A stretch of DNA of 64,000 nucleotides from Candidatus Daviesbacteria bacterium RIFCSPHIGHO2_12_FULL_37_16 (GTDB lineage: Bacteria > Patescibacteriota > Microgenomatia > Daviesbacterales > UBA10151). The stretch covers positions 60,432 to 124,431 of the forward strand of contig MFDF01000023.1 in NCBI GenBank assembly GCA_001776785.1, written 5' to 3'. The notes beneath the pieces are model-generated. The model was not told the origin of the DNA. It saw only the letters and a list, made by a program, of their open reading frames with translations, and did not search any database. Shown piece after piece: positions 50,169-64,000 of this stretch. The position numbers were made by a program, and so were the translations under genes. Every line of letters begins with the position of its first letter. The stretch's first letter is position 1.

Positions 50169-51947
50169 TTATCTAGTTCCGTTTAGGTCTATTTTTCTGA
50201 GTCTGACATTTTTTGGGGTGACTTCTACTAATTCTGAGTCATTAATGTATTCCAGGGCATCTTCCAGGTCCATGAGTTTTGGGGTATTAAAGTGTTCAGA
50301 AACTCCCTCTCCAGAGGATCTGTGATTAGTTTGTTGTTTTTCTTTAACTACATTTACAGAGATATCTCCAGGCCTTGAGCTTTGCCCAACTACCTGACCT
50401 TTGTAAACTGTAACACCTGGACCCAGAAAAAGTGTTCCTCTGGACTGGATACCAGTAAGGGCATAAAGTTTGGTTGCACCATTTTCATGGACAACTAGTG
50501 AACCATTATCCCTTTGGAAAGACTGACCTGGATCTTGGGCAAATTCATAAAAGTTTGTATTAATAATTCCCAGGCCTTTGGTGTCAGTAATAAATTCTGA
50601 CCTATATCCAAAAAGTTCTTTGGTTGAGATTATAAATTCCATAGTGGCTGTGCCATTATCATTTGTCATGTTTTGTAAATTTCCATGCCTTAAACCCATC
50701 TTTTGCATAACTACTCCAGAATATGTTTCTGGTACTTCTATATAAACTTTTTCAAATGGGGTAAGGGTTTGACCATTTTCCTGCTTTTCTATTACCTGAG
50801 GCCTTGAGACCTGGAATTCATAACCTTCCCTTCTTAACCTTTCAATTAAAATTGCCAGATGCAGTTCTCCTCTTCCTGAAACTTCCCATCCGCCACTTGT
50901 TTCCTTAACCTTTAGAGCAACATCATCTTCAGCTGCTTTAAACAACCTTTCTGCAATTTGACGGGATGTTTTAAACTCCCCTTCTTTTCCTGCAAATGGT
51001 GAAGTGTTTACACCAAAGGTCATTTTAACTGTGGGTTCTTCTATGGATAAAAGAGGAAGAGCTTGGGTATCTAAATTATCTGCAATGGTTTCACCAATTG
51101 TGATCTCAGGGATTCCTGAAAGGGCAATAATATCTCCGGCAAACGCTTCTTTGGCATCAATCCTATCCAATCCTTCAAAAGTCATAAGGGAGGTTAACCT
51201 GAATTTTGCTTTTTGCCCATCCCTGTTGATATGGATTACATCCTGGTTTGCATTGACTTTACCATTCATTATTCTACCTGTAGCAATTCTGCCTTTGAAA
51301 TTATCATATGAGGTGGAGGTGATTAAAATTTGAAGTGGTTTCTCCGGATCTCCAGATGGTTGAGGGATTTCTTTTAAAATTGTTTCAAAAATTGGGGTAA
51401 TATCTGTCATTGAATCTAAGTTTGGTTCTAAACCTGCCAGGCCATTTTTAGCTGAGGCATAAACAATTGGGAAATATGCAGAGTCTTCATCTGCACCAAG
51501 TTCTATAAAAAGATCAAAGGTTTTGTTTATAACATATTCAATTCTGGCATCTGCTTTATCAATTTTATTTATAACTACAATAATTTTTAATCCTAAACTT
51601 AAAGCCTGTTTTAAAACAAACCTGGTTTGAGGCATAGGGCCTTCTTTTGCATCAACCAGGAGTAAACAGCCGTCAACAAGTTTTAGGACTCTTTCTACTT
51701 CTCCTCCAAAATCTGCATGGCCAGGGGTGTCAACAATATTAATTTTGGTGCCAAGATAATTTACTAAAGCATTTTTGGAGAAAATTGTAATGCCTCTTTC
51801 TTTTTCAAGCTCATTAGAATCCATTATCAGATTTGTGTCTTTTAAGTCCTTGGAGAGTTTGGTTTCAGTTTGGCGCAGCAAAGAGTCAACAAGAGTAGTC
51901 TTGCCGTGGTCTACATGGGCGATGATTGCAACATTACGAATATTCAT
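50169..51947 (-). CDS. typA: Translational GTPase TypA/BipA
   Basis: G1 [11 protein letters not shown]3 DTPGHADF, G4 NKID. EF-G-like domains. Confidence 0.9.
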
Positions 51948-52080
51948 AAATTTTACCCAGAATAGATATTATACCTGATTTGAGAGAATAAAGAAACTAT
52001 AGGATCACATTAATTTTTTGAAAAAGACTATTTATTCTTTAAACGCGTAGTGATATCTTATACTGAATGCCCAGAGATAA

Positions 52081-53142
52081 ATGATGGAGCATTTAGACAG
52101 AAAAGAGGCAATTAGGAGAATGGCTGCAATTAGTGTGGCCCCTTTTATAGCCCCAAAACTCATTCTTCCTGGAATCTCTGAGGCTAATAATAAGTATCAG
52201 GTTCCCAATGTTATTGTTAAGAAGTCTCCTTCTTTTGATCCTTCTTCAAATCTGGGAATTAATGTAAATCCAGCATTAGTTGACTGCAATGCAAAATTTA
52301 TAAAAGATTTGGGAGCTTCTTGGGTTAGGCTAGTCCTAAATCCCCATACTGACTTTGGACCTTATTTAAGAGAATTAGAGAGTGTTGGTTTAGAGGCTGT
52401 TTGTGTAATAGGGCAGGAAAGCATAAAAGTTGGTGATTGGAATGATGAAAACCTTCTTAGCAGTAATCAATTTAAGTTATCAGCTGAATACTATGCTGAA
52501 AAATATAGTGGTTACCGTTTTGCACTTCAAATTGGAAATGAGCCAGATAATATCCCAACTGAAGATAGAGTAGAAAGCGAAGCGAGCTGGTGGCTGTATC
52601 AGGAAGTATTTAATAATTTGCTTGAATCCTACAGGGAAGTCTTTACAGATAGATTTTTAATAGCCGGGGGTGTATGTACTGGTGATTCTTATTATTTAGA
52701 TAGGGTTAATTTATCTCATGTAAATGCCTTTGCAGTGCAGCTGTATGGAGTGGATACACCTGAGGTTTCTTCTAATGAGGGTTTTACTGACGCTGCTTCT
52801 GCTTTAGGAAGGTATAAAATAAACCTTCCAGTTTTTATTACAGAAACAGGGGTAAATCACCTTAATTATACTGATGATGAAGCAGTTAAGTACTCTTTTG
52901 CTCTTTTGAATTACTATATAAAAAGGGGTATTCCTATTGCTTATTATTGTCTTTCAGATCTGATGCATGATGATCATGGGATTTTTGACAAAAATGGAAA
53001 TCCAAAACCTATCCTTAAGTCATTTTTGAAGGTTGCCTGGGGAGAGGATGTGCCCATAGATTCATTTCATCTAAACCCTGTTAAGGAAGAAGTTGTAGAA
53101 AAAGAGCCTGTTGTACAATTTACAGATTTTTCTTCTCGTTAA
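52081..53142 (+). CDS. Glycoside hydrolase, clan GH-A TIM barrel (GH5/GH113-like)
   Basis: Catalytic acid/base in QIGNEP and nucleophile in FITETG at the canonical spacing. N-terminal anchor. Confidence 0.55.
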   Translation: MMEHLDRKEAIRRMAAISVAPFIAPKLILPGISEANNKYQVPNVIVKKSPSFDPSSNLGINVNPALVDCNAKFIKDLGASWVRLVLNPHTDFGPYLRELESVGLEAVCVIGQESIKVGDWNDENLLSSNQFKLSAEYYAEKYSGYRFALQIGNEPDNIPTEDRVESEASWWLYQEVFNNLLESYREVFTDRFLIAGGVCTGDSYYLDRVNLSHVNAFAVQLYGVDTPEVSSNEGFTDAASALGRYKINLPVFITETGVNHLNYTDDEAVKYSFALLNYYIKRGIPIAYYCLSDLMHDDHGIFDKNGNPKPILKSFLKVAWGEDVPIDSFHLNPVKEEVVEKEPVVQFTDFSSR

Positions 53143-53285
53143 ATTTTGGAATAAGTACCGCGTACGGAAGATATCCTAGTCCTTCGACTTCGCTCAGGAC
53201 TAACGAACCAGATCAAAGATCTTTGTTCTCTCTTAACACAGTTATTACAAAATTAATGGTCACAAGGACCAATAAATTTTGTAAG

Positions 53286-53359
53286 TACCGCGTACGGGAG
53301 TCGAACCCGTGATCTTAACATTGAGAATGTTATGTCCTGGACCACTAGACGAACGCGGC
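53286..53359 (-). tRNA. tRNA-Glu (anticodon CTC)
   Basis: Hand-folded. GCCGCGT acceptor. D-arm GTCT-AGTGGTCCA-GGAC (very similar to E. coli tRNA-Glu). Anticodon stem TAACA/TGTTA, loop TTCTCAA. T-arm ACGGG-TTCGACT-CCCGT. Confidence 0.7.
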
Positions 53360-53500
53360 TCGCTTTGCTCGCCTTGTCCGTCTGCGAGTATTCCGTTTAC
53401 TCTTTTGATTGCTGTCAAAGAGTAAACTCCAAACTCTAATGACGAACGCGGCGCAGGTCAATTATAGCAATTTAGCCTCAAAAAAGATATACTTTTAGGC

Positions 53501-54955
53501 ATGGCATTAGATCAGTTGAAAAAAGAGAGAATTAAGAAGCTCAATAATATTAAAAAGCTGGGAGTTAATCCTTACCCTGCAAAAGCTAAGAGGACTTTTG
53601 AGATACACAAAGCCAGGGGAATTTTGGGCAGAAAAGTTGTAGTTGCAGGAAGGATAAGATCCCTACGTCCTCATGGAAAGATTACTTTTGCAGATTTAGA
53701 GGATGCCAGTGGTAGAATGCAGCTTTTTTTCTCTTTGAATGATCTTCCAGGGGAAAAATATGATTTTTTAGTAAATTTAGATTTAGGGGATTTTATAGAA
53801 GTTTCTGGTGAGGTTTTTAAAACCCAGGCTGGTGAAGTAACTGTTAAGGTAAAAGACTATAAAATTTTAACTAAATCTTTACTTCCCCTTCCTTCTTCCT
53901 GGTATGGACTTAAAGACATTGAAGAAAGAAACAGGAAAAGATATCTGGATCTACTTATGAATCCAGAAGTTAGGACAACTTTTGAAACAAGGTCAAAAAT
54001 AGTTCATGCAATAAGAAAATTTTTAGTAGAAGAAAAGGGATATTTTGAAGTGGAAAATCCAGTACTCCAACCTTTATATGGTGGAACAAGAGCCAGGCCT
54101 TTTAAAACACATCACAACAGCTTAGATGCAACATTATACTTAAGGATTTCCAATGAACTTTATTTAAAAAGATTAATTGTTGGTGGGTTTGAGAAAGTTT
54201 TTGAGATTGGACACACCTTTAGAAATGAAGGGATGGATAGAAACCATAACCCTGAATTTACCATGCTTGAGACAATGGAGGCTTATGCAGATTATATAGA
54301 TAATATGAATTTGGTGGAAGAGATGTTTGAGTATGTTGCAAAATCTGTTTTTGGTAGTACTAAACTTGAGTACCAGGGCCAGGTTTTAGAATTTAAAAGA
54401 CCCTGGATAAGAGTAAAACTTGAGGAATTATTTAAGAAGCACACAGGGGTTAAATTTTCAAGCATTGATACTTTAGAAAAAGCTACAACTCTTGCTAAAA
54501 AACTTGGGGTAGAGATTAAAGATTATATGACTGATGGGGAAATTTTACTTGAGATTTTTGAGAAAAAATGTACTTCGCAGTTAATCCAGCCAACTTTTGT
54601 TTATGATTATCCTGCAGATTTTTACCCTTTAGCTAAGAAGAAAGCTGATGATCTAAGGTTTGTTGAGAGTTTTGATATTTATGTTGTAGGGATGGAGATG
54701 GGGACAAATTATTCAGAGGCAAATGATCCATCCCAGGTAAGAGAGGCCTGGGTTAAAGAAAAGAAAAAAGAACAAAAGGGAAATCCAGAAGCCCAAAAAA
54801 TGGATGAGGATTTTTTGGAAGCGCTGGAGTATGGAATGCCTCCAACTTCTGGGATTGGTCCTGGGATAGACAGGTGGATAATGGTGATGACAAACTCCCC
54901 ATCAATTTCTGATGTGATAGCATTTCCAACTTTAAAACCTGAAAGGAAAAAATGA
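53501..54955 (+). CDS. lysS: Lysyl-tRNA synthetase, class II
   Basis: OB anticodon-binding N-domain. Class II motifs (FRNEGMDRNHNPEFTMLE, GIGPGIDR). Confidence 0.9.
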   Translation: MALDQLKKERIKKLNNIKKLGVNPYPAKAKRTFEIHKARGILGRKVVVAGRIRSLRPHGKITFADLEDASGRMQLFFSLNDLPGEKYDFLVNLDLGDFIEVSGEVFKTQAGEVTVKVKDYKILTKSLLPLPSSWYGLKDIEERNRKRYLDLLMNPEVRTTFETRSKIVHAIRKFLVEEKGYFEVENPVLQPLYGGTRARPFKTHHNSLDATLYLRISNELYLKRLIVGGFEKVFEIGHTFRNEGMDRNHNPEFTMLETMEAYADYIDNMNLVEEMFEYVAKSVFGSTKLEYQGQVLEFKRPWIRVKLEELFKKHTGVKFSSIDTLEKATTLAKKLGVEIKDYMTDGEILLEIFEKKCTSQLIQPTFVYDYPADFYPLAKKKADDLRFVESFDIYVVGMEMGTNYSEANDPSQVREAWVKEKKKEQKGNPEAQKMDEDFLEALEYGMPPTSGIGPGIDRWIMVMTNSPSISDVIAFPTLKPERKK

Positions 54956-61201: not shown

Positions 61202-62770
61202 CTAGAATCGAAAATCTATTTCAATTTTTCCATTTCCTGCTCTGATCTCTTTGACTATCATACGTAGTACATGTTTTCTCTCTTCAAGTTCCGAACTATC
61301 CCATAAAGTATTGAAGTCATCTAGGGATTTAGTAAATTTCTCTAGCTCTTTGCGACGCTCATTAAGTTGTTGAACCTTAAATTGATAATCATCGGTTACC
61401 ACATGGTATTTAGTTACCTCTTCCTCCAGACGCTTCATATTGCCCGCATACACATCTATAGAGTCAATACCCGCCTCGTATGCCTCTTTGACTCTCTCAC
61501 GTCTTCTATCGATATCTGCGAGGTGCTTAGCTGCTAATTTGTAATCTGATTCAAGGTTATCTGTAATAGCAATATTTCTGTCAAATATAAGCCTTTCTCT
61601 GGCAGTAGGATTGTTTACGAGATTGCGTATCTGATTCAAGACAAAATCTTCAAGCCTTGTTGCACTCATAATCCTTCGTTGGCATATTCCACTGTACTTG
61701 TAGCCTCCGCACAAGTACTCATAAGTAGTGGTATCATTCCATTTCGGATTTTTCTTCTTTCTGTTGTGGTGGCGGGTAAGATAAGTTACACCTGATCCGC
61801 AACGAATACATTTTGCTATGCCTGTAAGTAAACCTCTGCTTTGTTTTGCTCGTCCTTTTTGCGAGTTTCCCCTAATCCTTTTCTCCTTTTGAGCGAGCTT
61901 AAATATTTCTTCAGGTATAATGGCTTTGTGTATTCCGTCTTCAACAATGCCTTTATGATCTCGTAACTTTCGTTGTTTGTTTTTTGCATAGTCTGCATGT
62001 CTCCAACCCCAAAGTACCTTTCCAGTATAAGTTTGGTTTTGAAGCATATATTTGATCGCTTGGGCTCTCCAATATTTACCTCTTGGAGGTTTTATGCCTT
62101 TTTCTGTGAGTGCAAAGGCAATACTTAAAGCCCCTCTTCCTTTAGTGTATTCTTCAAATATCCAGCGAATAGTTTTAGCGTTTTCTTCATCAACCTCAAC
62201 TTTTCTTTGAACTTTATTTTTATCATCAATCCAACGAATAATTTTATAACCATAGGGCACGTTGTTTGGTATCTTTCCAGCTTTTGCTACAGCTACCTTA
62301 CCCATCGTCATTCTACGCCTGATCTTATTCCTTTCGATTTCGTTCATGGTGTCACTGAAGCCTTCTACCATTATGCCTAAGTCGTCATCTGTAGGATCGT
62401 AAAGTTTTGGATCTCTCGGCTCAACAGGGGTTGCAAGCGAATACGTTTGTATAAATATCTTCTTTAGCTCATCTCTAGATTTAGTAGCCAGTGATTTATT
62501 TCGTGCAAATCTATCAAAATCTTTTACTATTACAAGATCGAATTTGTAGGCAAGGGCATCCTGCATGAGTTTTTGGAAACCTAGTCTTTCTTCCATTAAA
62601 TGGCCACTTTCTGCGTCGATATAGGGTTCTTCAACCAGTTCCCAGCCGTGATCGGCTATGGCTTTTTTGCACACTCTTATTTGATCGGGGATAGATTCCT
62701 TGCCGTCTGCTTGTTCTTTTGTTGAGACTCTTCCGTAAATAACAGCTCTAATTTTAAATTTATTTTCCAT
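61202..62770 (-). CDS. Large serine recombinase (resolvase N-domain + recombinase domain + Zn-ribbon + coiled coil)
   Basis: AVIYGRVSTKEQ (catalytic Ser). C-terminal CxxC...C Zn-ribbon (CIRCGS...CGGYKYSGIC). Confidence 0.8.
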   Translation of the reverse strand: MENKFKIRAVIYGRVSTKEQADGKESIPDQIRVCKKAIADHGWELVEEPYIDAESGHLMEERLGFQKLMQDALAYKFDLVIVKDFDRFARNKSLATKSRDELKKIFIQTYSLATPVEPRDPKLYDPTDDDLGIMVEGFSDTMNEIERNKIRRRMTMGKVAVAKAGKIPNNVPYGYKIIRWIDDKNKVQRKVEVDEENAKTIRWIFEEYTKGRGALSIAFALTEKGIKPPRGKYWRAQAIKYMLQNQTYTGKVLWGWRHADYAKNKQRKLRDHKGIVEDGIHKAIIPEEIFKLAQKEKRIRGNSQKGRAKQSRGLLTGIAKCIRCGSGVTYLTRHHNRKKKNPKWNDTTTYEYLCGGYKYSGICQRRIMSATRLEDFVLNQIRNLVNNPTARERLIFDRNIAITDNLESDYKLAAKHLADIDRRRERVKEAYEAGIDSIDVYAGNMKRLEEEVTKYHVVTDDYQFKVQQLNERRKELEKFTKSLDDFNTLWDSSELEERKHVLRMIVKEIRAGNGKIEIDFRF

Positions 62771-62790
62771 ATTACATTTAATCGAACAAT

Positions 62791-63027
62791 TTATTTCTTC
62801 AACTTAATTTCTACTGAATTCAAATAAGCCAAGACATCTTCTTTTCTATAGCGTCTATCATTTCTGGAACCTACACGAATAGCTACAAGCTTTCCTTTTT
62901 TGTCCCATTCCCTTAAAGTCCAATTGCTAACCCCTAGAATTCTTGCTGTTTGCTCAAGTGTTAAGAGATATCCCCAAGTATTTGGATCTGAAGGAGAAAA
63001 TAAACTAGTTGATTTACTATTTACCAT
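62791..63027 (-). CDS. Excisionase-family helix-turn-helix DNA-binding protein
   Basis: LTLEQTARILGVSNWTLREWDKKGKL...R..YRKEDV matches HTH_17/excisionase (MerR-like). Confidence 0.6.
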   Translation of the reverse strand: MVNSKSTSLFSPSDPNTWGYLLTLEQTARILGVSNWTLREWDKKGKLVAIRVGSRNDRRYRKEDVLAYLNSVEIKLKK

Positions 63028-63068
63028 AACTTATACTAAGTTAACCATAGTTAAATGTAAAATGCAAT

Positions 63069-63887
63069 ATGAATAATGATGTAATCTTAGATTCTCTGAG
63101 ACTAGTAAAAAATATTCTTAATTCGCTACTGCCAGAAGAAAAAGGAGCAATAGTAAATATTGCTAGAGATAAAAGAGATTCTTTCCAACTTAAAGGAATA
63201 GCAACAATATATGGCTACAAACAAGACAAGACGCCTGTATTTTTAGAAAAACATGGAGTAATAGAGGCTATAAACACTAGAAAATGGCACGTCGATAATG
63301 TTGATGAAAATGATGATTGGGTAAAGCAAGTCTTGCCAGAAATAAATTTCGTAGATCCTATTTTTACAAAAGCTCTCGCTAAAGATTACTTAGAAGATAA
63401 TCAAATACCTAAATATTATTACGAGGCTACTTATTGGGGTGGAGTTCCTACTGTTTACTCATGGGGGCCTAAGAAAGATAGACATGCAGCAATTTTAGTT
63501 AGCGTTGACGGCCTCAATAAGTTTATAGAAATGTTTGATGTTCAAAATAGTAAATTTGCTCAGAAAGAAAAAATCGTGACATTTGATGATGCGACTGGTG
63601 AGGTTAAAGTAAGTGGTAATACTTTAGGTAAGATAAGAAAAAATACAGATCAGTTTGAATTATGCAATGTAGTTCTTAAGAATGGAGCCTCTAAAAAGAA
63701 AACATGGGAATGGGATGAGATATTAAATAAGTGGCATATGGATAATCTAGATAATCTAAAGGCTAAGAAAATGAAGGTTTATCGTGCAGCTCGGGAGATA
63801 AATAAAAAAATTGCTCAAGTTAGTGAATATAAAGAATTCTATATTTTTACTACTAACACCTTACAGCTAAATCCTATCTTCAAATAA
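63069..63887 (+). CDS. Hypothetical protein, element cargo (272 aa)
   Basis: Clean ORF divergent from the recombinase operon. No domain recognised. Confidence 0.45.
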   Translation: MNNDVILDSLRLVKNILNSLLPEEKGAIVNIARDKRDSFQLKGIATIYGYKQDKTPVFLEKHGVIEAINTRKWHVDNVDENDDWVKQVLPEINFVDPIFTKALAKDYLEDNQIPKYYYEATYWGGVPTVYSWGPKKDRHAAILVSVDGLNKFIEMFDVQNSKFAQKEKIVTFDDATGEVKVSGNTLGKIRKNTDQFELCNVVLKNGASKKKTWEWDEILNKWHMDNLDNLKAKKMKVYRAAREINKKIAQVSEYKEFYIFTTNTLQLNPIFK

Positions 63888-64000
63888 TTGTTTGTCTAAC
63901 ATTATATAAATTTAGACAAATCCTCTTTTTGTAAACTTTGGTTGACATGCAAAGTCAGCCATTTTCAAAACTCACACCAGAACAACAAGAGAAGGTAATA

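What the first reader, a model, noticed from the sequence alone, without database searches (positions are those of the whole stretch)
53153..53452. Att-like duplications of both ends of tRNA-Glu
The 16-mer TAAGTACCGCGTACGG (tRNA 3' end, + strand 53282-53297) is repeated at 53153-53168. The 5'-end 12-mer GACGAACGCGGC (53349-53360) recurs at 53441-53452. Exact duplications of tRNA 3' ends are the footprint of tyrosine-integrase elements. Here the intervening segments are only ~113 nt and ~80 nt and rich in perfect hairpins (e.g. GTTTACTCTTT/AAAGAGTAAAC), which suggests remnants or miniature elements.
Basis: seen in the sequence. Interest (0 to 1): 0.5.

Follow-up and report, generated by a model that had tools for sequence, protein, structure and literature searches.

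The report
Small insertions splitting a tRNA-Glu gene
A glutamate tRNA gene in an uncultured groundwater bacterium (Candidatus Daviesbacteria) is flanked by leftover copies of its own first 12 and last about 16-19 bases because two small DNA insertions landed in it and each brought a replacement piece; the downstream insert belongs to a hairpin-rich 111-base element family found behind three tRNA genes of this genome and is in no RNA family library.

Summary
tRNA-Glu(CUC) lies at 53285-53359 (-). Its first 12 nt recur 93 nt upstream (53441-53452). Its standard nt 59-74 plus UUA recur 130 nt downstream (53152-53170, one mismatch).

The outer 5' copy sits 8 nt after an extended -10 box, TGCTATAAT. 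That matches the geometry of undisrupted tRNA-Glu genes, so it is the original gene start.

The 111-nt downstream spacer is not a random remnant. Homologous modules follow tRNA-Glu(UUC) and tRNA-Lys(UUU) on another contig of the same genome. Each has three covarying hairpins and a conserved AGATCTTTGATCTGGTTCG, and each ends in a copy of its own tRNA from nt 59 to nt 74.

The nearest relative has Glu and Lys 4 nt apart with no modules. It has instead a different 5' insertion that duplicates nt 1-19.

Best reading: small insertions into the D-loop and T-loop regions that each restore the tRNA. The 3' one is a miniature, non-autonomous element family. No tyrosine integrase or transposase family matched among the 39 larger ORFs scanned (about 74 kb examined), so the enzyme is unknown.

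Interest is moderate.

The parts
53461..53469 (-). Extended -10 promoter box TGCTATAAT (TATAAT = 53461-53466). It lies 8 nt upstream of the outer 5' tRNA fragment and is the presumed original tRNA-Glu promoter.
   Evidence: Read from the sequence. Undisrupted tRNA-Glu genes show the same geometry: L099 TATAAT+11, L101 TATAAT+10, L102 TAAAAT+10, L108 outer fragment TAAAAT+10. The region aligns in register with the L108 promoter, 19/22, shuffle p about 0.01. The consensus scan proposes an alternative promoter, TTGACC-17-TAGAGT at 53461..53433.
53441..53452 (-). Outer 5' fragment, a displaced copy of tRNA-Glu nt 1-12 (GCCGCGUUCGUC).
   Evidence: Exact 12-mer repeat, unique in the window. Identity starts exactly at tRNA nt 1.
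53360..53440 (-). 5' insert (sp1), 81 nt with two hairpins (11-bp stem GUUUACUCUUU/AAAGAGUAAAC, and CUCGC/GCGAG). It has no homologue in any sequence fetched.
   Evidence: I2; folding z = -5.2. blastn found no other copy in the window or loci.
53285..53359 (-). Intact tRNA-Glu(CUC). Its acceptor, D and T arms are identical to those of the genome's tRNA-Glu(UUC), apart from one D-loop base, and only the anticodon arm differs.
   Evidence: ARAGORN, Rfam 63.9 bits, comparison with L099-L102 and L108.
53282..53300 (-). Proximal 3' repeat: tRNA standard nt 59-73, C74 and the UUA trailer.
   Evidence: (D1).
53245..53284 (-). Module hairpin A, an AU-rich stem of about 15 bp that starts right after the tRNA. 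No U-tract follows the full stem.
   Evidence: Compensatory changes against L102 (helix 1). The 'terminator-like' call uses only the inner 5-bp stem.
53204..53228 (-). Module hairpin B (AGAUC-UUU-GAUCU, extended by GAAC/GUUC in the Glu modules) plus the conserved GGUUCG.
   Evidence: The sequence is AGATCTTTGATCTGGTTCG in the window and L102-Lys modules and AAATCTTTGATTTGGTTCG in L102-Glu, a compensatory G-C to A-U change.
53177..53202 (-). Module hairpin C. The loop varies between copies but the stem always pairs.
   Evidence: (helix 4, 100% paired, 3 pairs with double changes).
53152..53170 (-). Distal 3' fragment, a displaced copy of tRNA nt 59-74 plus UUA. It carries one mismatch (C61 to U, at 53168) and ends 9 nt from the stop codon of the convergent ORF 52081-53142.

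Best explanation
The locus is one tRNA-Glu gene that has taken up two small insertions. Each insertion carries a replacement copy of the tRNA segment it displaces, so an intact tRNA-Glu(CUC) survives between two orphaned end fragments.

(1) 3' side. A 111-nt structured module plus a 16-nt copy of tRNA nt 59-74 sits between T-loop positions 58 and 59. This pushes the original 3' end 130 nt downstream. The module belongs to a small family of non-coding, non-autonomous elements. The same genome carries at least three copies, behind tRNA-Glu(UUC), tRNA-Lys(UUU) and this tRNA-Glu(CUC). Each copy ends in its own tRNA's nt 59-74.

(2) 5' side. An unrelated 81-nt hairpin-rich segment plus a copy of nt 1-12 sits after position 12. 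The original gene start and its promoter are left 93 nt upstream.

Shown: the anatomy, the family, its conserved secondary structure, and presence/absence at an orthologous locus in the nearest relative.

Inferred: the inserts arrived by a site-specific DNA insertion that targets the tRNA T-loop and D-loop regions. Two mechanisms would fit. One is integrase-type recombination with an element-borne tRNA core. The other is a 'ruler' type insertion that duplicates 16 bp next to the conserved GGTTCGA. The enzyme would act in trans and is not identified.

Also inferred: at this locus the 3' module came along when the Glu(UUC) transcription unit was duplicated to make the CUC gene, and the 5' insertion came later. 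The whole array is probably transcribed from the outer promoter, and RNase P and 3' processing release the tRNA.
For: - Exact, unique repeats of tRNA nt 1-12 and nt 59-74+UUA.
- The extended -10 box TGCTATAAT lies 8 nt before the outer 5' fragment. Undisrupted tRNA-Glu genes have the same geometry, and the region aligns in register with the L108 promoter.
- A metagenome scan recovered L102: tRNA-Glu(UUC), a module 74% identical to the window's, a copy of nt 59-76, tRNA-Lys(UUU), a module of the same architecture, and a copy of Lys nt 59-74.
- L102 is the same genome as the window. Its proteins carry ACD_30C00017 and A2858_01300 names, against ACD_30C00080 and A2858_02445 for the window.
- The three hairpins are supported by covariation: 86% of cells paired against 48% or less when partners are slid, 8 pairs with double changes, and 0 of 500 shuffles as good.
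- The orthologous locus in the nearest relative, L108, has Glu-ATAT-Lys with no modules. The flanks after the L102 distal copies match the native L108 flanks. L108 instead has a 5' insertion duplicating nt 1-19, which L102 lacks.
- Three other Daviesbacteria tRNA-Glu(CUC) loci have no end duplications.
- In both tRNA types the duplication starts at position 59 and ends at 74 (+0-3).
- The spacers match no Rfam family.
- Precedent: integrating elements split a tRNA gene and restore it, leaving a displaced fragment (PMC4383910). An attP core covering the T-loop can be retargeted to other tRNAs by core changes (PMC1762012).
Against: - No tyrosine integrase or transposase family matched in the 39 larger ORFs scanned across the window, and none is listed for the 10 kb to its right. 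The only recombinase is a large serine recombinase in a prophage-like region 8 kb away.
- No attP-like junction or further module copy appeared in viral contigs, phage genomes or 260 kb of related DNA.
- The module has no terminal inverted repeats.
- Only three copies are known, all from one genome, so mobility rests on a single presence/absence comparison. That comparison could equally reflect precise deletion between the direct repeats in the relative.
- The Glu and Lys modules are only about 45% identical, so they are not recent copies of one another.
- The 5' inserts of the window and of L108 share no sequence, so a common '5' element' is not shown.
- The modules are probably co-transcribed with the tRNAs. 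Hairpin A lacks a U-tract, and by my reading of the L102 sequence a stem GCGTGAG followed by TTTTTT comes only after the second module; the consensus scan did not list it. An RNA-level role is therefore not excluded.
Confidence: 0.55

Rival explanations
1. The 3' module is a functional RNA co-transcribed with the tRNA. It would be a structured trailer whose 3' end mimics the tRNA acceptor/T-stem 3' strand. It could, for example, guide or buffer 3' processing and CCA addition, or control folding of the precursor. It would spread with tRNA gene duplications rather than by transposition. In the window, the outer 5' fragment and the distal 3' copy would pair as an outer 'acceptor stem' around the whole unit.
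For: - Three hairpins are conserved with compensatory changes, and folding z-scores are -4 to -6.
- Hairpin A lacks a U-tract. In L102 tRNA-Lys lies downstream of the Glu module with no promoter-like site in between. By my reading of the sequence, a stem-plus-TTTTTT follows only after the second module. The modules are therefore probably transcribed.
- In both Glu modules the linker pairs with the distal copy as a continuous helix.
- In the fold of the whole region the outer 5' fragment pairs with the distal acceptor strand.
- The window's module seems to have been inherited through a gene duplication.
Against: - The distal copy is identical to the tRNA even at unpaired positions (59-60, 73-74). 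It is contiguous with the native flank seen in the module-less relative. That looks like copying at the DNA level, not selection for pairing.
- The nearest relative manages without modules at the same two tRNAs, and tRNA-Gln in the window has none.
- The linker-to-distal-copy helix is absent in the Lys module.
- 5' and 3' fragments do not co-occur in L102 or L108.
- No Rfam family matches.
Confidence: 0.2
2. The repeats are scars of two ordinary large integrated islands or prophages (tyrosine integrase, attL/attR). Their interiors were later deleted, leaving only the arm sequences.
For: - An intact tRNA plus a displaced fragment in direct orientation is the standard island signature (PMC4383910).
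- The locus is a synteny break point. Relatives have RR-HK-tRNA-Glu-greA-M49 upstream of lysS. The window has typA plus an ORFan (52081-53142) that has no homologue among 5.8 billion proteins.
- This reading may well apply to the 5' inserts, which differ in sequence between the window and L108.
Against: - Independent deletions would not leave the same 111-nt, three-hairpin architecture three times, behind two different tRNAs.
- No integrase pseudogene fits in 81 or 111 nt.
- The ORFan lies outside the repeats, and no third repeat copy exists in the window.
Confidence: 0.15
3. The fragments are what is left of a tandem array of tRNA-Glu genes, with pseudogenised copies on either side of the survivor.
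For: - The CUC gene is clearly a paralogue of the UUC gene, with identical arms.
- There are weak colinear resemblances between the module and tRNA nt 40-58: UGUUAAGA, AAGAUC and GGUUCG.
Against: - The module interior shows no significant similarity to nt 1-58 of its own tRNA. z is 2 or less, and the only p below 0.05 is 0.04 for Lys.
- The Rfam tRNA model finds nothing in the spacers at E up to 10.
- Perfect 12-19-nt ends next to totally unrelated sequence is not how pseudogenes decay.
- The repeat spacings differ, at 93 and 130 nt.
Confidence: 0.07

Closest known systems
tRNA-targeting integrative elements (tyrosine-integrase genomic islands and prophages; Islander-type attL/attR with a displaced tRNA fragment; T-loop sites such as mycobacteriophage Ms6)
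   Same: The target tRNA stays intact because the insert carries the displaced segment. A direct-repeat fragment marks the far end. The identity block runs from the T-loop region to the tRNA 3' end (PMC4383910, PMC1762012). Relatives provide an empty site.
   Different: The inserts are only 81 and 111 nt and have no coding capacity. No tyrosine integrase family matched in the ORFs scanned nearby. One backbone carries cores for two different tRNAs. The identity block starts at nt 59, so it excludes most of the T-loop that serves as the crossover in Ms6. There is also a 5' (D-loop side) counterpart, which to my knowledge is unusual for islands.
Non-autonomous att-flanked elements (CIME-type: att sites without recombination genes) and MITE-like miniature elements
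   Same: Short, non-coding, multi-copy and rich in hairpins, flanked by direct repeats, and presumably mobilised in trans.
   Different: There are no terminal inverted repeats. The 16-nt duplication is longer than typical transposase target duplications. Insertion is strictly tied to one position of tRNA genes. Mobilisation has not been shown. The CIME comparison rests on my own knowledge and was not checked in a paper.
Casposon (Cas1-type) integration next to the T-loop of tRNA genes
   Same: A fixed-length duplication of about 15 bp lies immediately downstream of a recognition segment containing the T-loop (PMC5137440: 15-bp TSD plus an 18-bp upstream segment of tRNA-Pro). A ruler-type mechanism would explain why both tRNA types are duplicated from nt 59 for 16 nt.
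   Different: Casposons need terminal inverted repeats and encode a casposase and a polymerase, and neither is present here. In A. boonei the duplication overlaps the tRNA by only 5 bp, whereas here it lies entirely inside the tRNA.

Membership tests
Tyrosine-integrase island/prophage att scar | Intact target tRNA plus a displaced partial tRNA copy in direct orientation | tested here: met
   nt 59-74+UUA lies 130 nt downstream and nt 1-12 lies 93 nt upstream.
Tyrosine-integrase island/prophage att scar | Integrase gene inside the element, next to one att site, with a multi-kb element | tested here: not met
   The inserts are 81 and 111 nt. No Phage_integrase family matched in the 39 larger ORFs scanned with Pfam across the 64 kb, and none is listed for the 10 kb to the right.
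Tyrosine-integrase island/prophage att scar | Empty site in related genomes | tested here: inconclusive
   No orthologue of this exact locus exists, because synteny is broken in all relatives. At the paralogous Glu-Lys locus of the same genome, the relative L108 lacks both modules. Precise deletion between the repeats cannot be excluded.
Tyrosine-integrase island/prophage att scar | A free attP junction (P arm - core - P' arm) exists on some element | tested here: not met
   Exact-pattern scans of viral contigs and one metagenome scan found only tRNA genes or chance hits. The scans need exact matches, so sensitivity is limited.
MITE / DDE-transposon derivative | Terminal inverted repeats | tested here: not met
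   No inverted repeat joins the two ends of the 111-nt module (and inspection).
MITE / DDE-transposon derivative | Several dispersed copies with a target duplication of constant length | tested here: inconclusive
   Three copies occur in one genome, each with a duplication from nt 59 to nt 74 (+0-3). No more copies were found in 260 kb.
Casposon-type (Cas1) insertion | TSD of about 15 bp adjacent to a tRNA T-loop recognition segment | tested here: met
   The 16-nt duplication starts right after GGTTCGA in both Glu and Lys. Compare PMC5137440.
Casposon-type (Cas1) insertion | TIRs and a casposase/PolB gene set | tested here: not met
   There are no TIRs. No Cas1 or PolB family matched in the ORFs scanned.
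Known structured RNA (riboswitch, T-box, leader, sRNA, ribozyme) | Match to a curated covariance model | tested here: not met
   In Rfam 15 at E up to 10, only the tRNAs match in the window, L102 and L108 regions.
Intrinsic terminator (hairpin A) | GC-rich stem followed by a U-tract | tested here: not met
   The scan's hit uses only an inner 5-bp stem, and its 'T-run' is the 3' strand of the full 15-bp hairpin. tRNA-Lys lies downstream of the Glu module in L102.
Decayed tandem tRNA gene copies | Residual similarity of the spacer to the rest of the tRNA | tested here: not met
   Local alignment against shuffles gives z of 2 or less. The Rfam tRNA model is silent on the spacers.

The most novel reading that the evidence does not exclude
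The 111-nt module may be a so far undescribed class of miniature element, or of co-transcribed tRNA-trailer RNA, in CPR bacteria. It would insert precisely between T-loop positions 58 and 59 of different tRNA genes and duplicate a fixed 16-nt stretch (nt 59-74). That implies a ruler-type, T-loop-recognising insertion enzyme acting in trans, or an RNA whose 3' end deliberately mimics the acceptor/T strand of its tRNA. A mirror-image process would operate at the D-loop side of the same genes.
Probability: 0.3. Interest if true: 0.65.

Novelty: new variant of a known kind. Interest (0 to 1): 0.5.

Why it matters
tRNA genes are the classic landing sites of mobile DNA, but the known cases are kilobase-scale islands that carry an integrase.

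Here the insert is a 111-nt, non-coding, structurally conserved unit. It occurs behind three tRNAs of one tiny CPR genome, always with the junction between T-loop positions 58 and 59, and there is a 5' counterpart. If it is mobile, it points to an unrecognised trans-acting insertion activity in Patescibacteria. It would also be a source of tRNA-locus rearrangement, since this locus is a synteny break point and the CUC gene is a remodelled copy of the UUC gene.

If it is instead a functional trailer RNA, it bears on how CCA-less tRNA precursors are matured in reduced genomes.

There is also a practical point. Displaced fragments like these break assemblies at tRNA genes. Two contigs (L109, L111) end inside the tRNA itself and a third (L107) ends in its T-loop. 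Such fragments can also mislead tRNA annotation (PMC9897764).

Tried and rejected
- The genome-contig scan with a LysS alignment used universal motifs and returned only distant phyla. It was wasted.
- Strains with identical LysS (L001-L004) are base-for-base identical in the intergenic region, so they add nothing.
- ORF353 has no homologues, so it gave no syntenic comparators.
- Viral scans for the 16-mer, the anticodon arm, the 5' 18-mer, the module motif, and predicted attP or attL-type junctions gave only chance hits in GC-rich coding DNA or unrelated phage tRNA-Glu genes.
- blastn against 50,697 phage genomes matched only the tRNA body.
- blastn of both spacers against the window and all loci found no other copy.
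- A covariance model of the module found no further members in about 260 kb of CPR DNA or in the 10 kb right of the window.
- The 'decayed tRNA copy' idea failed a shuffle test.
- A retroviral-PBS-like origin (reverse transcriptase stopping at m1A58 and copying nt 59-76) was considered because of the position-59 boundary. I rejected it because the copies carry the gene's own trailer (CUUA, CCG) and not CCA.
- A T-box or leader for lysS was rejected. The segment is too short, lies on the wrong strand for the repeats, and has no Rfam hit.
- The last contig look-ups either ended inside the tRNA (L111) or brought no new tRNA (L112).
- A paper on group I introns in Patescibacteria tRNA genes contained none of the six search terms I tried, such as T-arm, duplicat, repeat and tRNAGlu.

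Full report
**1. What is there**

The window comes from an uncultured Candidatus Daviesbacteria (CPR/Microgenomates) genome: ACD_30 / RIFCSP MAG GCA_001777025.1, contig MFCW01000029.

ARAGORN and Rfam place one tRNA-Glu(CUC) at 53285-53359 on the minus strand, scoring 63.9 bits. It lies between a convergent ORFan (52081-53142, +) and the divergent lysS (53501-54955, +).

- The 16-mer lies at 53152-53167 and 53282-53297.
- The 12-mer lies at 53348-53359 and 53441-53452.
- Each occurs exactly twice in 64 kb, with none expected by chance.

The 3' repeat extends to 19 nt with one mismatch. On the tRNA strand it covers standard positions 59-73, C74 and UUA. The 5' repeat is exactly nt 1-12. At least 7 independent assemblies of this organism read here (window, L001-L004, L112, L113) carry the arrangement, and L001-L004 are base-for-base identical to the window over the intergenic region, so it is not an assembly artefact.

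**2. Which copy is the original**

On the minus strand an extended -10 box, TGCTATAAT (53461-53469), lies 8 nt before the outer 5' fragment.

Undisrupted tRNA-Glu genes of the same sequence type have a -10 box 10-11 nt before nt 1 (L099, L101, L102, and the L108 outer fragment). Other Daviesbacteria tRNA-Glu(CUC) genes have the same geometry. The window's outer upstream region also aligns in register with the L108 promoter (19/22, shuffle p about 0.01).

By contrast, the sequence just upstream of the inner, intact tRNA is GC-rich and has no -10 box. The outer 5' fragment is therefore the original start of the gene. The inner tRNA is probably transcribed from that promoter behind a 93-nt leader. 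The consensus scan proposes a weaker alternative promoter that overlaps the fragment.

**3. The 3' spacer is a member of a family**

One metagenome scan for the tRNA 3' end (CTYCCGTACGCGGTACTTA) returned seven loci with tRNA-Glu(UUC) genes. Their acceptor, D and T arms are essentially identical to the window's tRNA.

One of these loci, L102, reads as follows:
- tRNA-Glu(UUC);
- a 110-nt spacer 74% identical to the window's 111-nt spacer;
- a copy of Glu nt 59-76;
- TTAT;
- tRNA-Lys(UUU);
- a 111-nt spacer of the same architecture;
- a copy of Lys nt 59-74.

After this array I read a stem (CTCACGC/GCGTGAG) followed by TTTTTT in the sequence. The consensus terminator scan did not list it.

The shared architecture is:
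- hairpin A, starting right after the tRNA;
- a linker;
- hairpin B (AGAUC-UUU-GAUCU) followed by GGUUCG;
- hairpin C;
- a 5-7-nt linker;
- the tRNA copy.

The hairpins covary. 86% of cells are paired, against 48% or less when partners are slid. Eight pairs show changes on both sides, and 0 of 500 shuffles do as well. With only three sequences this counts as support, not proof. Rfam has no family for the module.

An exact-sequence look-up shows that the proteins of L102 carry ACD_30C00017 and A2858_01300 names. L102 is therefore another contig of the same genome as the window. This genome thus holds at least three module copies. tRNA-Gln in the window has none.

**4. Presence and absence in relatives**

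L108 is the nearest relative found at the Glu-Lys locus. Its neighbouring DUF1361 protein is 79% identical, and the upstream intergenic DNA is about 85-90% identical. Its locus reads: promoter, GCCGCGTTCGT, a 54-nt palindromic insert, CTAGTGGC (together tRNA nt 1-19), about 80 AT-rich nt, intact tRNA-Glu(UUC), ATAT, tRNA-Lys, CCGATCGTGCAC.

L108 therefore lacks both 3' modules. The sequences that follow the L102 distal copies (TTAT-tRNA-Lys; CCGAAGGTGCAC) correspond to the native L108 flanks. This shows that the distal copy is the original tRNA end.

Conversely, L108 has a 5' insertion with a displaced nt 1-19 fragment, and L102 lacks one. The 5' and 3' events are thus independent and vary between close lineages.

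Three other Daviesbacteria tRNA-Glu(CUC) loci carry a different tRNA-Glu sequence and no end duplications (L086, L094, L095; LysS 77-78% identical).

**5. History of this locus (inferred)**

In relatives the order is Lon, H+-PPase, response regulator, histidine kinase, tRNA-Glu(CUC), greA, M49-like, lysS, HD, serS, secA. In the window the block from the regulator to the M49-like gene is replaced by typA, an ORFan and this tRNA.

Three observations bear on the origin of the window's tRNA:
- It has the body of the genome's UUC isoacceptor.
- Its outer promoter resembles the UUC gene's promoter.
- Its distal copy is followed by UUAU, as in L102.

The simplest reading is that the CUC gene arose by duplication of the whole Glu(UUC) unit: promoter, tRNA, module and distal copy. 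The anticodon arm was then remodelled, and the 5' insertion (sp1 plus nt 1-12) came afterwards. This is inference from short alignments.

**6. Mechanism**

Shown: small inserts, each carrying the displaced tRNA segment, with junctions at T-loop 58/59 (three times, in two tRNA types) and after nt 12 or nt 19.

Inferred: a site-specific DNA insertion process. Two mechanisms would fit.

(a) Integrase-type recombination with an element-borne core. This is the standard way islands preserve tRNA genes (PMC4383910), and cores can be retargeted (PMC1762012).
- In favour: the logic of restoring the gene.
- Against: one backbone carrying two unrelated cores, an identity block that starts after most of the T-loop, and no integrase found.

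(b) A ruler-type insertion that nicks right after the conserved GGTTCGA and again 16 bp further on, so that the duplication is made from the target. This resembles casposon integration next to the T-loop of tRNA-Pro, which gives a 15-bp duplication (PMC5137440).
- In favour: the same start and length in Glu and Lys.
- Against: no terminal inverted repeats and no Cas1.

I cannot choose between them.

No tyrosine integrase, DDE transposase, Cas1 or reverse transcriptase family matched among the 39 larger ORFs that I scanned with Pfam across the 64 kb, and none is listed for the genes called in the 10 kb to the right. The only recombinase is a large serine recombinase (61202-62770) at the edge of a prophage-like region.

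**7. Rivals**

A functional co-transcribed RNA remains possible (about 0.2). The hairpins covary, hairpin A is not a terminator, and tRNA-Lys lies downstream of a module. In both Glu modules the linker pairs with the distal copy, and in the whole-region fold the outer 5' fragment pairs with the distal acceptor strand. Against it: the identity extends to unpaired positions, the distal copy is continuous with the native flank, the modules are absent in the nearest relative, and the closing helix is missing in the Lys module.

'Deleted large islands' (about 0.15) cannot explain the same 111-nt architecture arising three times. It may still apply to the 5' inserts.

'Decayed tandem tRNA copies' failed a shuffle test.

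**8. Verdict**

Tyrosine-integrase involvement is unproven, and at this locus the module was probably inherited by duplication.

The kind of thing is known (tRNA-gene insertion with a displaced fragment), but the miniature, structured, multi-tRNA form with a fixed 59-74 duplication and a 5' counterpart is a new variant. The evidence base is thin: three copies, one genome and one relative. That keeps both confidence and interest moderate.

Noticed in passing
window 61202-64000 and L112 8134-20500: Directly after secA comes a large serine recombinase (Resolvase + Recombinase + Zn_ribbon_recom, 522 aa, minus strand). It is followed by an HTH_17 (excisionase-like) gene, a run of small unannotated ORFs, DUF5659, SHOCT, an Amidase_3 (lysin-like) gene and an HTH repressor-like gene. 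This looks like a small prophage or integrated element. Its ends were not mapped.
   Followed up: partly
window 52081-53142 (+): This 353-aa ORF has only a sub-threshold Pfam match to glycosyl hydrolase family 5. It found only itself among 5.8 billion protein clusters. It is an ORFan sitting exactly at the synteny break next to the tRNA.
   Followed up: partly
window 50169-53500 versus L085, L086, L088, L094-L096: Synteny breaks here. Relatives carry response regulator, histidine kinase, tRNA-Glu(CUC), greA, an M49-like gene and one or two further genes upstream of lysS. The window has typA and the ORFan instead. Where greA and the two-component genes went in this genome is unknown.
   Followed up: partly
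L086 289-363 (-), L094 6582-6656 (+), L095 6750-6822 (-): In other Daviesbacteria the tRNA-Glu(CUC) gene sits in the same region upstream of greA and lysS (between the histidine kinase and greA in L094 and L095) but in either orientation. It comes in at least two very different sequence types (GGCGCCA... and GGCGCAU...). This suggests repeated replacement or inversion of this tRNA gene.
   Followed up: no
L108 1333-1386: A 54-nt insert with 7-bp terminal inverted repeats (TCCCGAT...ATCGGGA) and three internal mini-hairpins interrupts the displaced 5' tRNA fragment between nt 11 and nt 12. It appears to be a second, nested small insertion.
   Followed up: no
L100 250-403: The tRNA-Glu(UUC) of another low-GC contig is preceded by about 110 nt of dense hairpins and has no -10 box at the usual distance. 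No displaced tRNA fragment is present. It may be a further kind of 5' insertion.
   Followed up: no
L010 3141-3369: In a Paenibacillaceae contig the last 16 nt of tRNA-Val(UAC) and the following roughly 76 nt are repeated in tandem (92-nt period) up to the contig end. This is unrelated to the module described here.
   Followed up: no
L107, L109 and L111 contig ends: Three independent assemblies of this tRNA-Glu locus in this organism or its relatives stop at the gene: L109 and L111 end inside the tRNA and L107 ends in its T-loop. This is consistent with the partial tRNA repeats breaking short-read assembly.
   Followed up: no
L097 2054-2127 and L098 4517-4590: Two high-GC viral contigs carry tRNA-Glu(CUC) genes. 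One of them has 33 tRNAs and a tmRNA. Their genes share the acceptor and T-arm sequence of the window's tRNA but are otherwise unrelated. This acceptor type is therefore widespread.
   Followed up: partly
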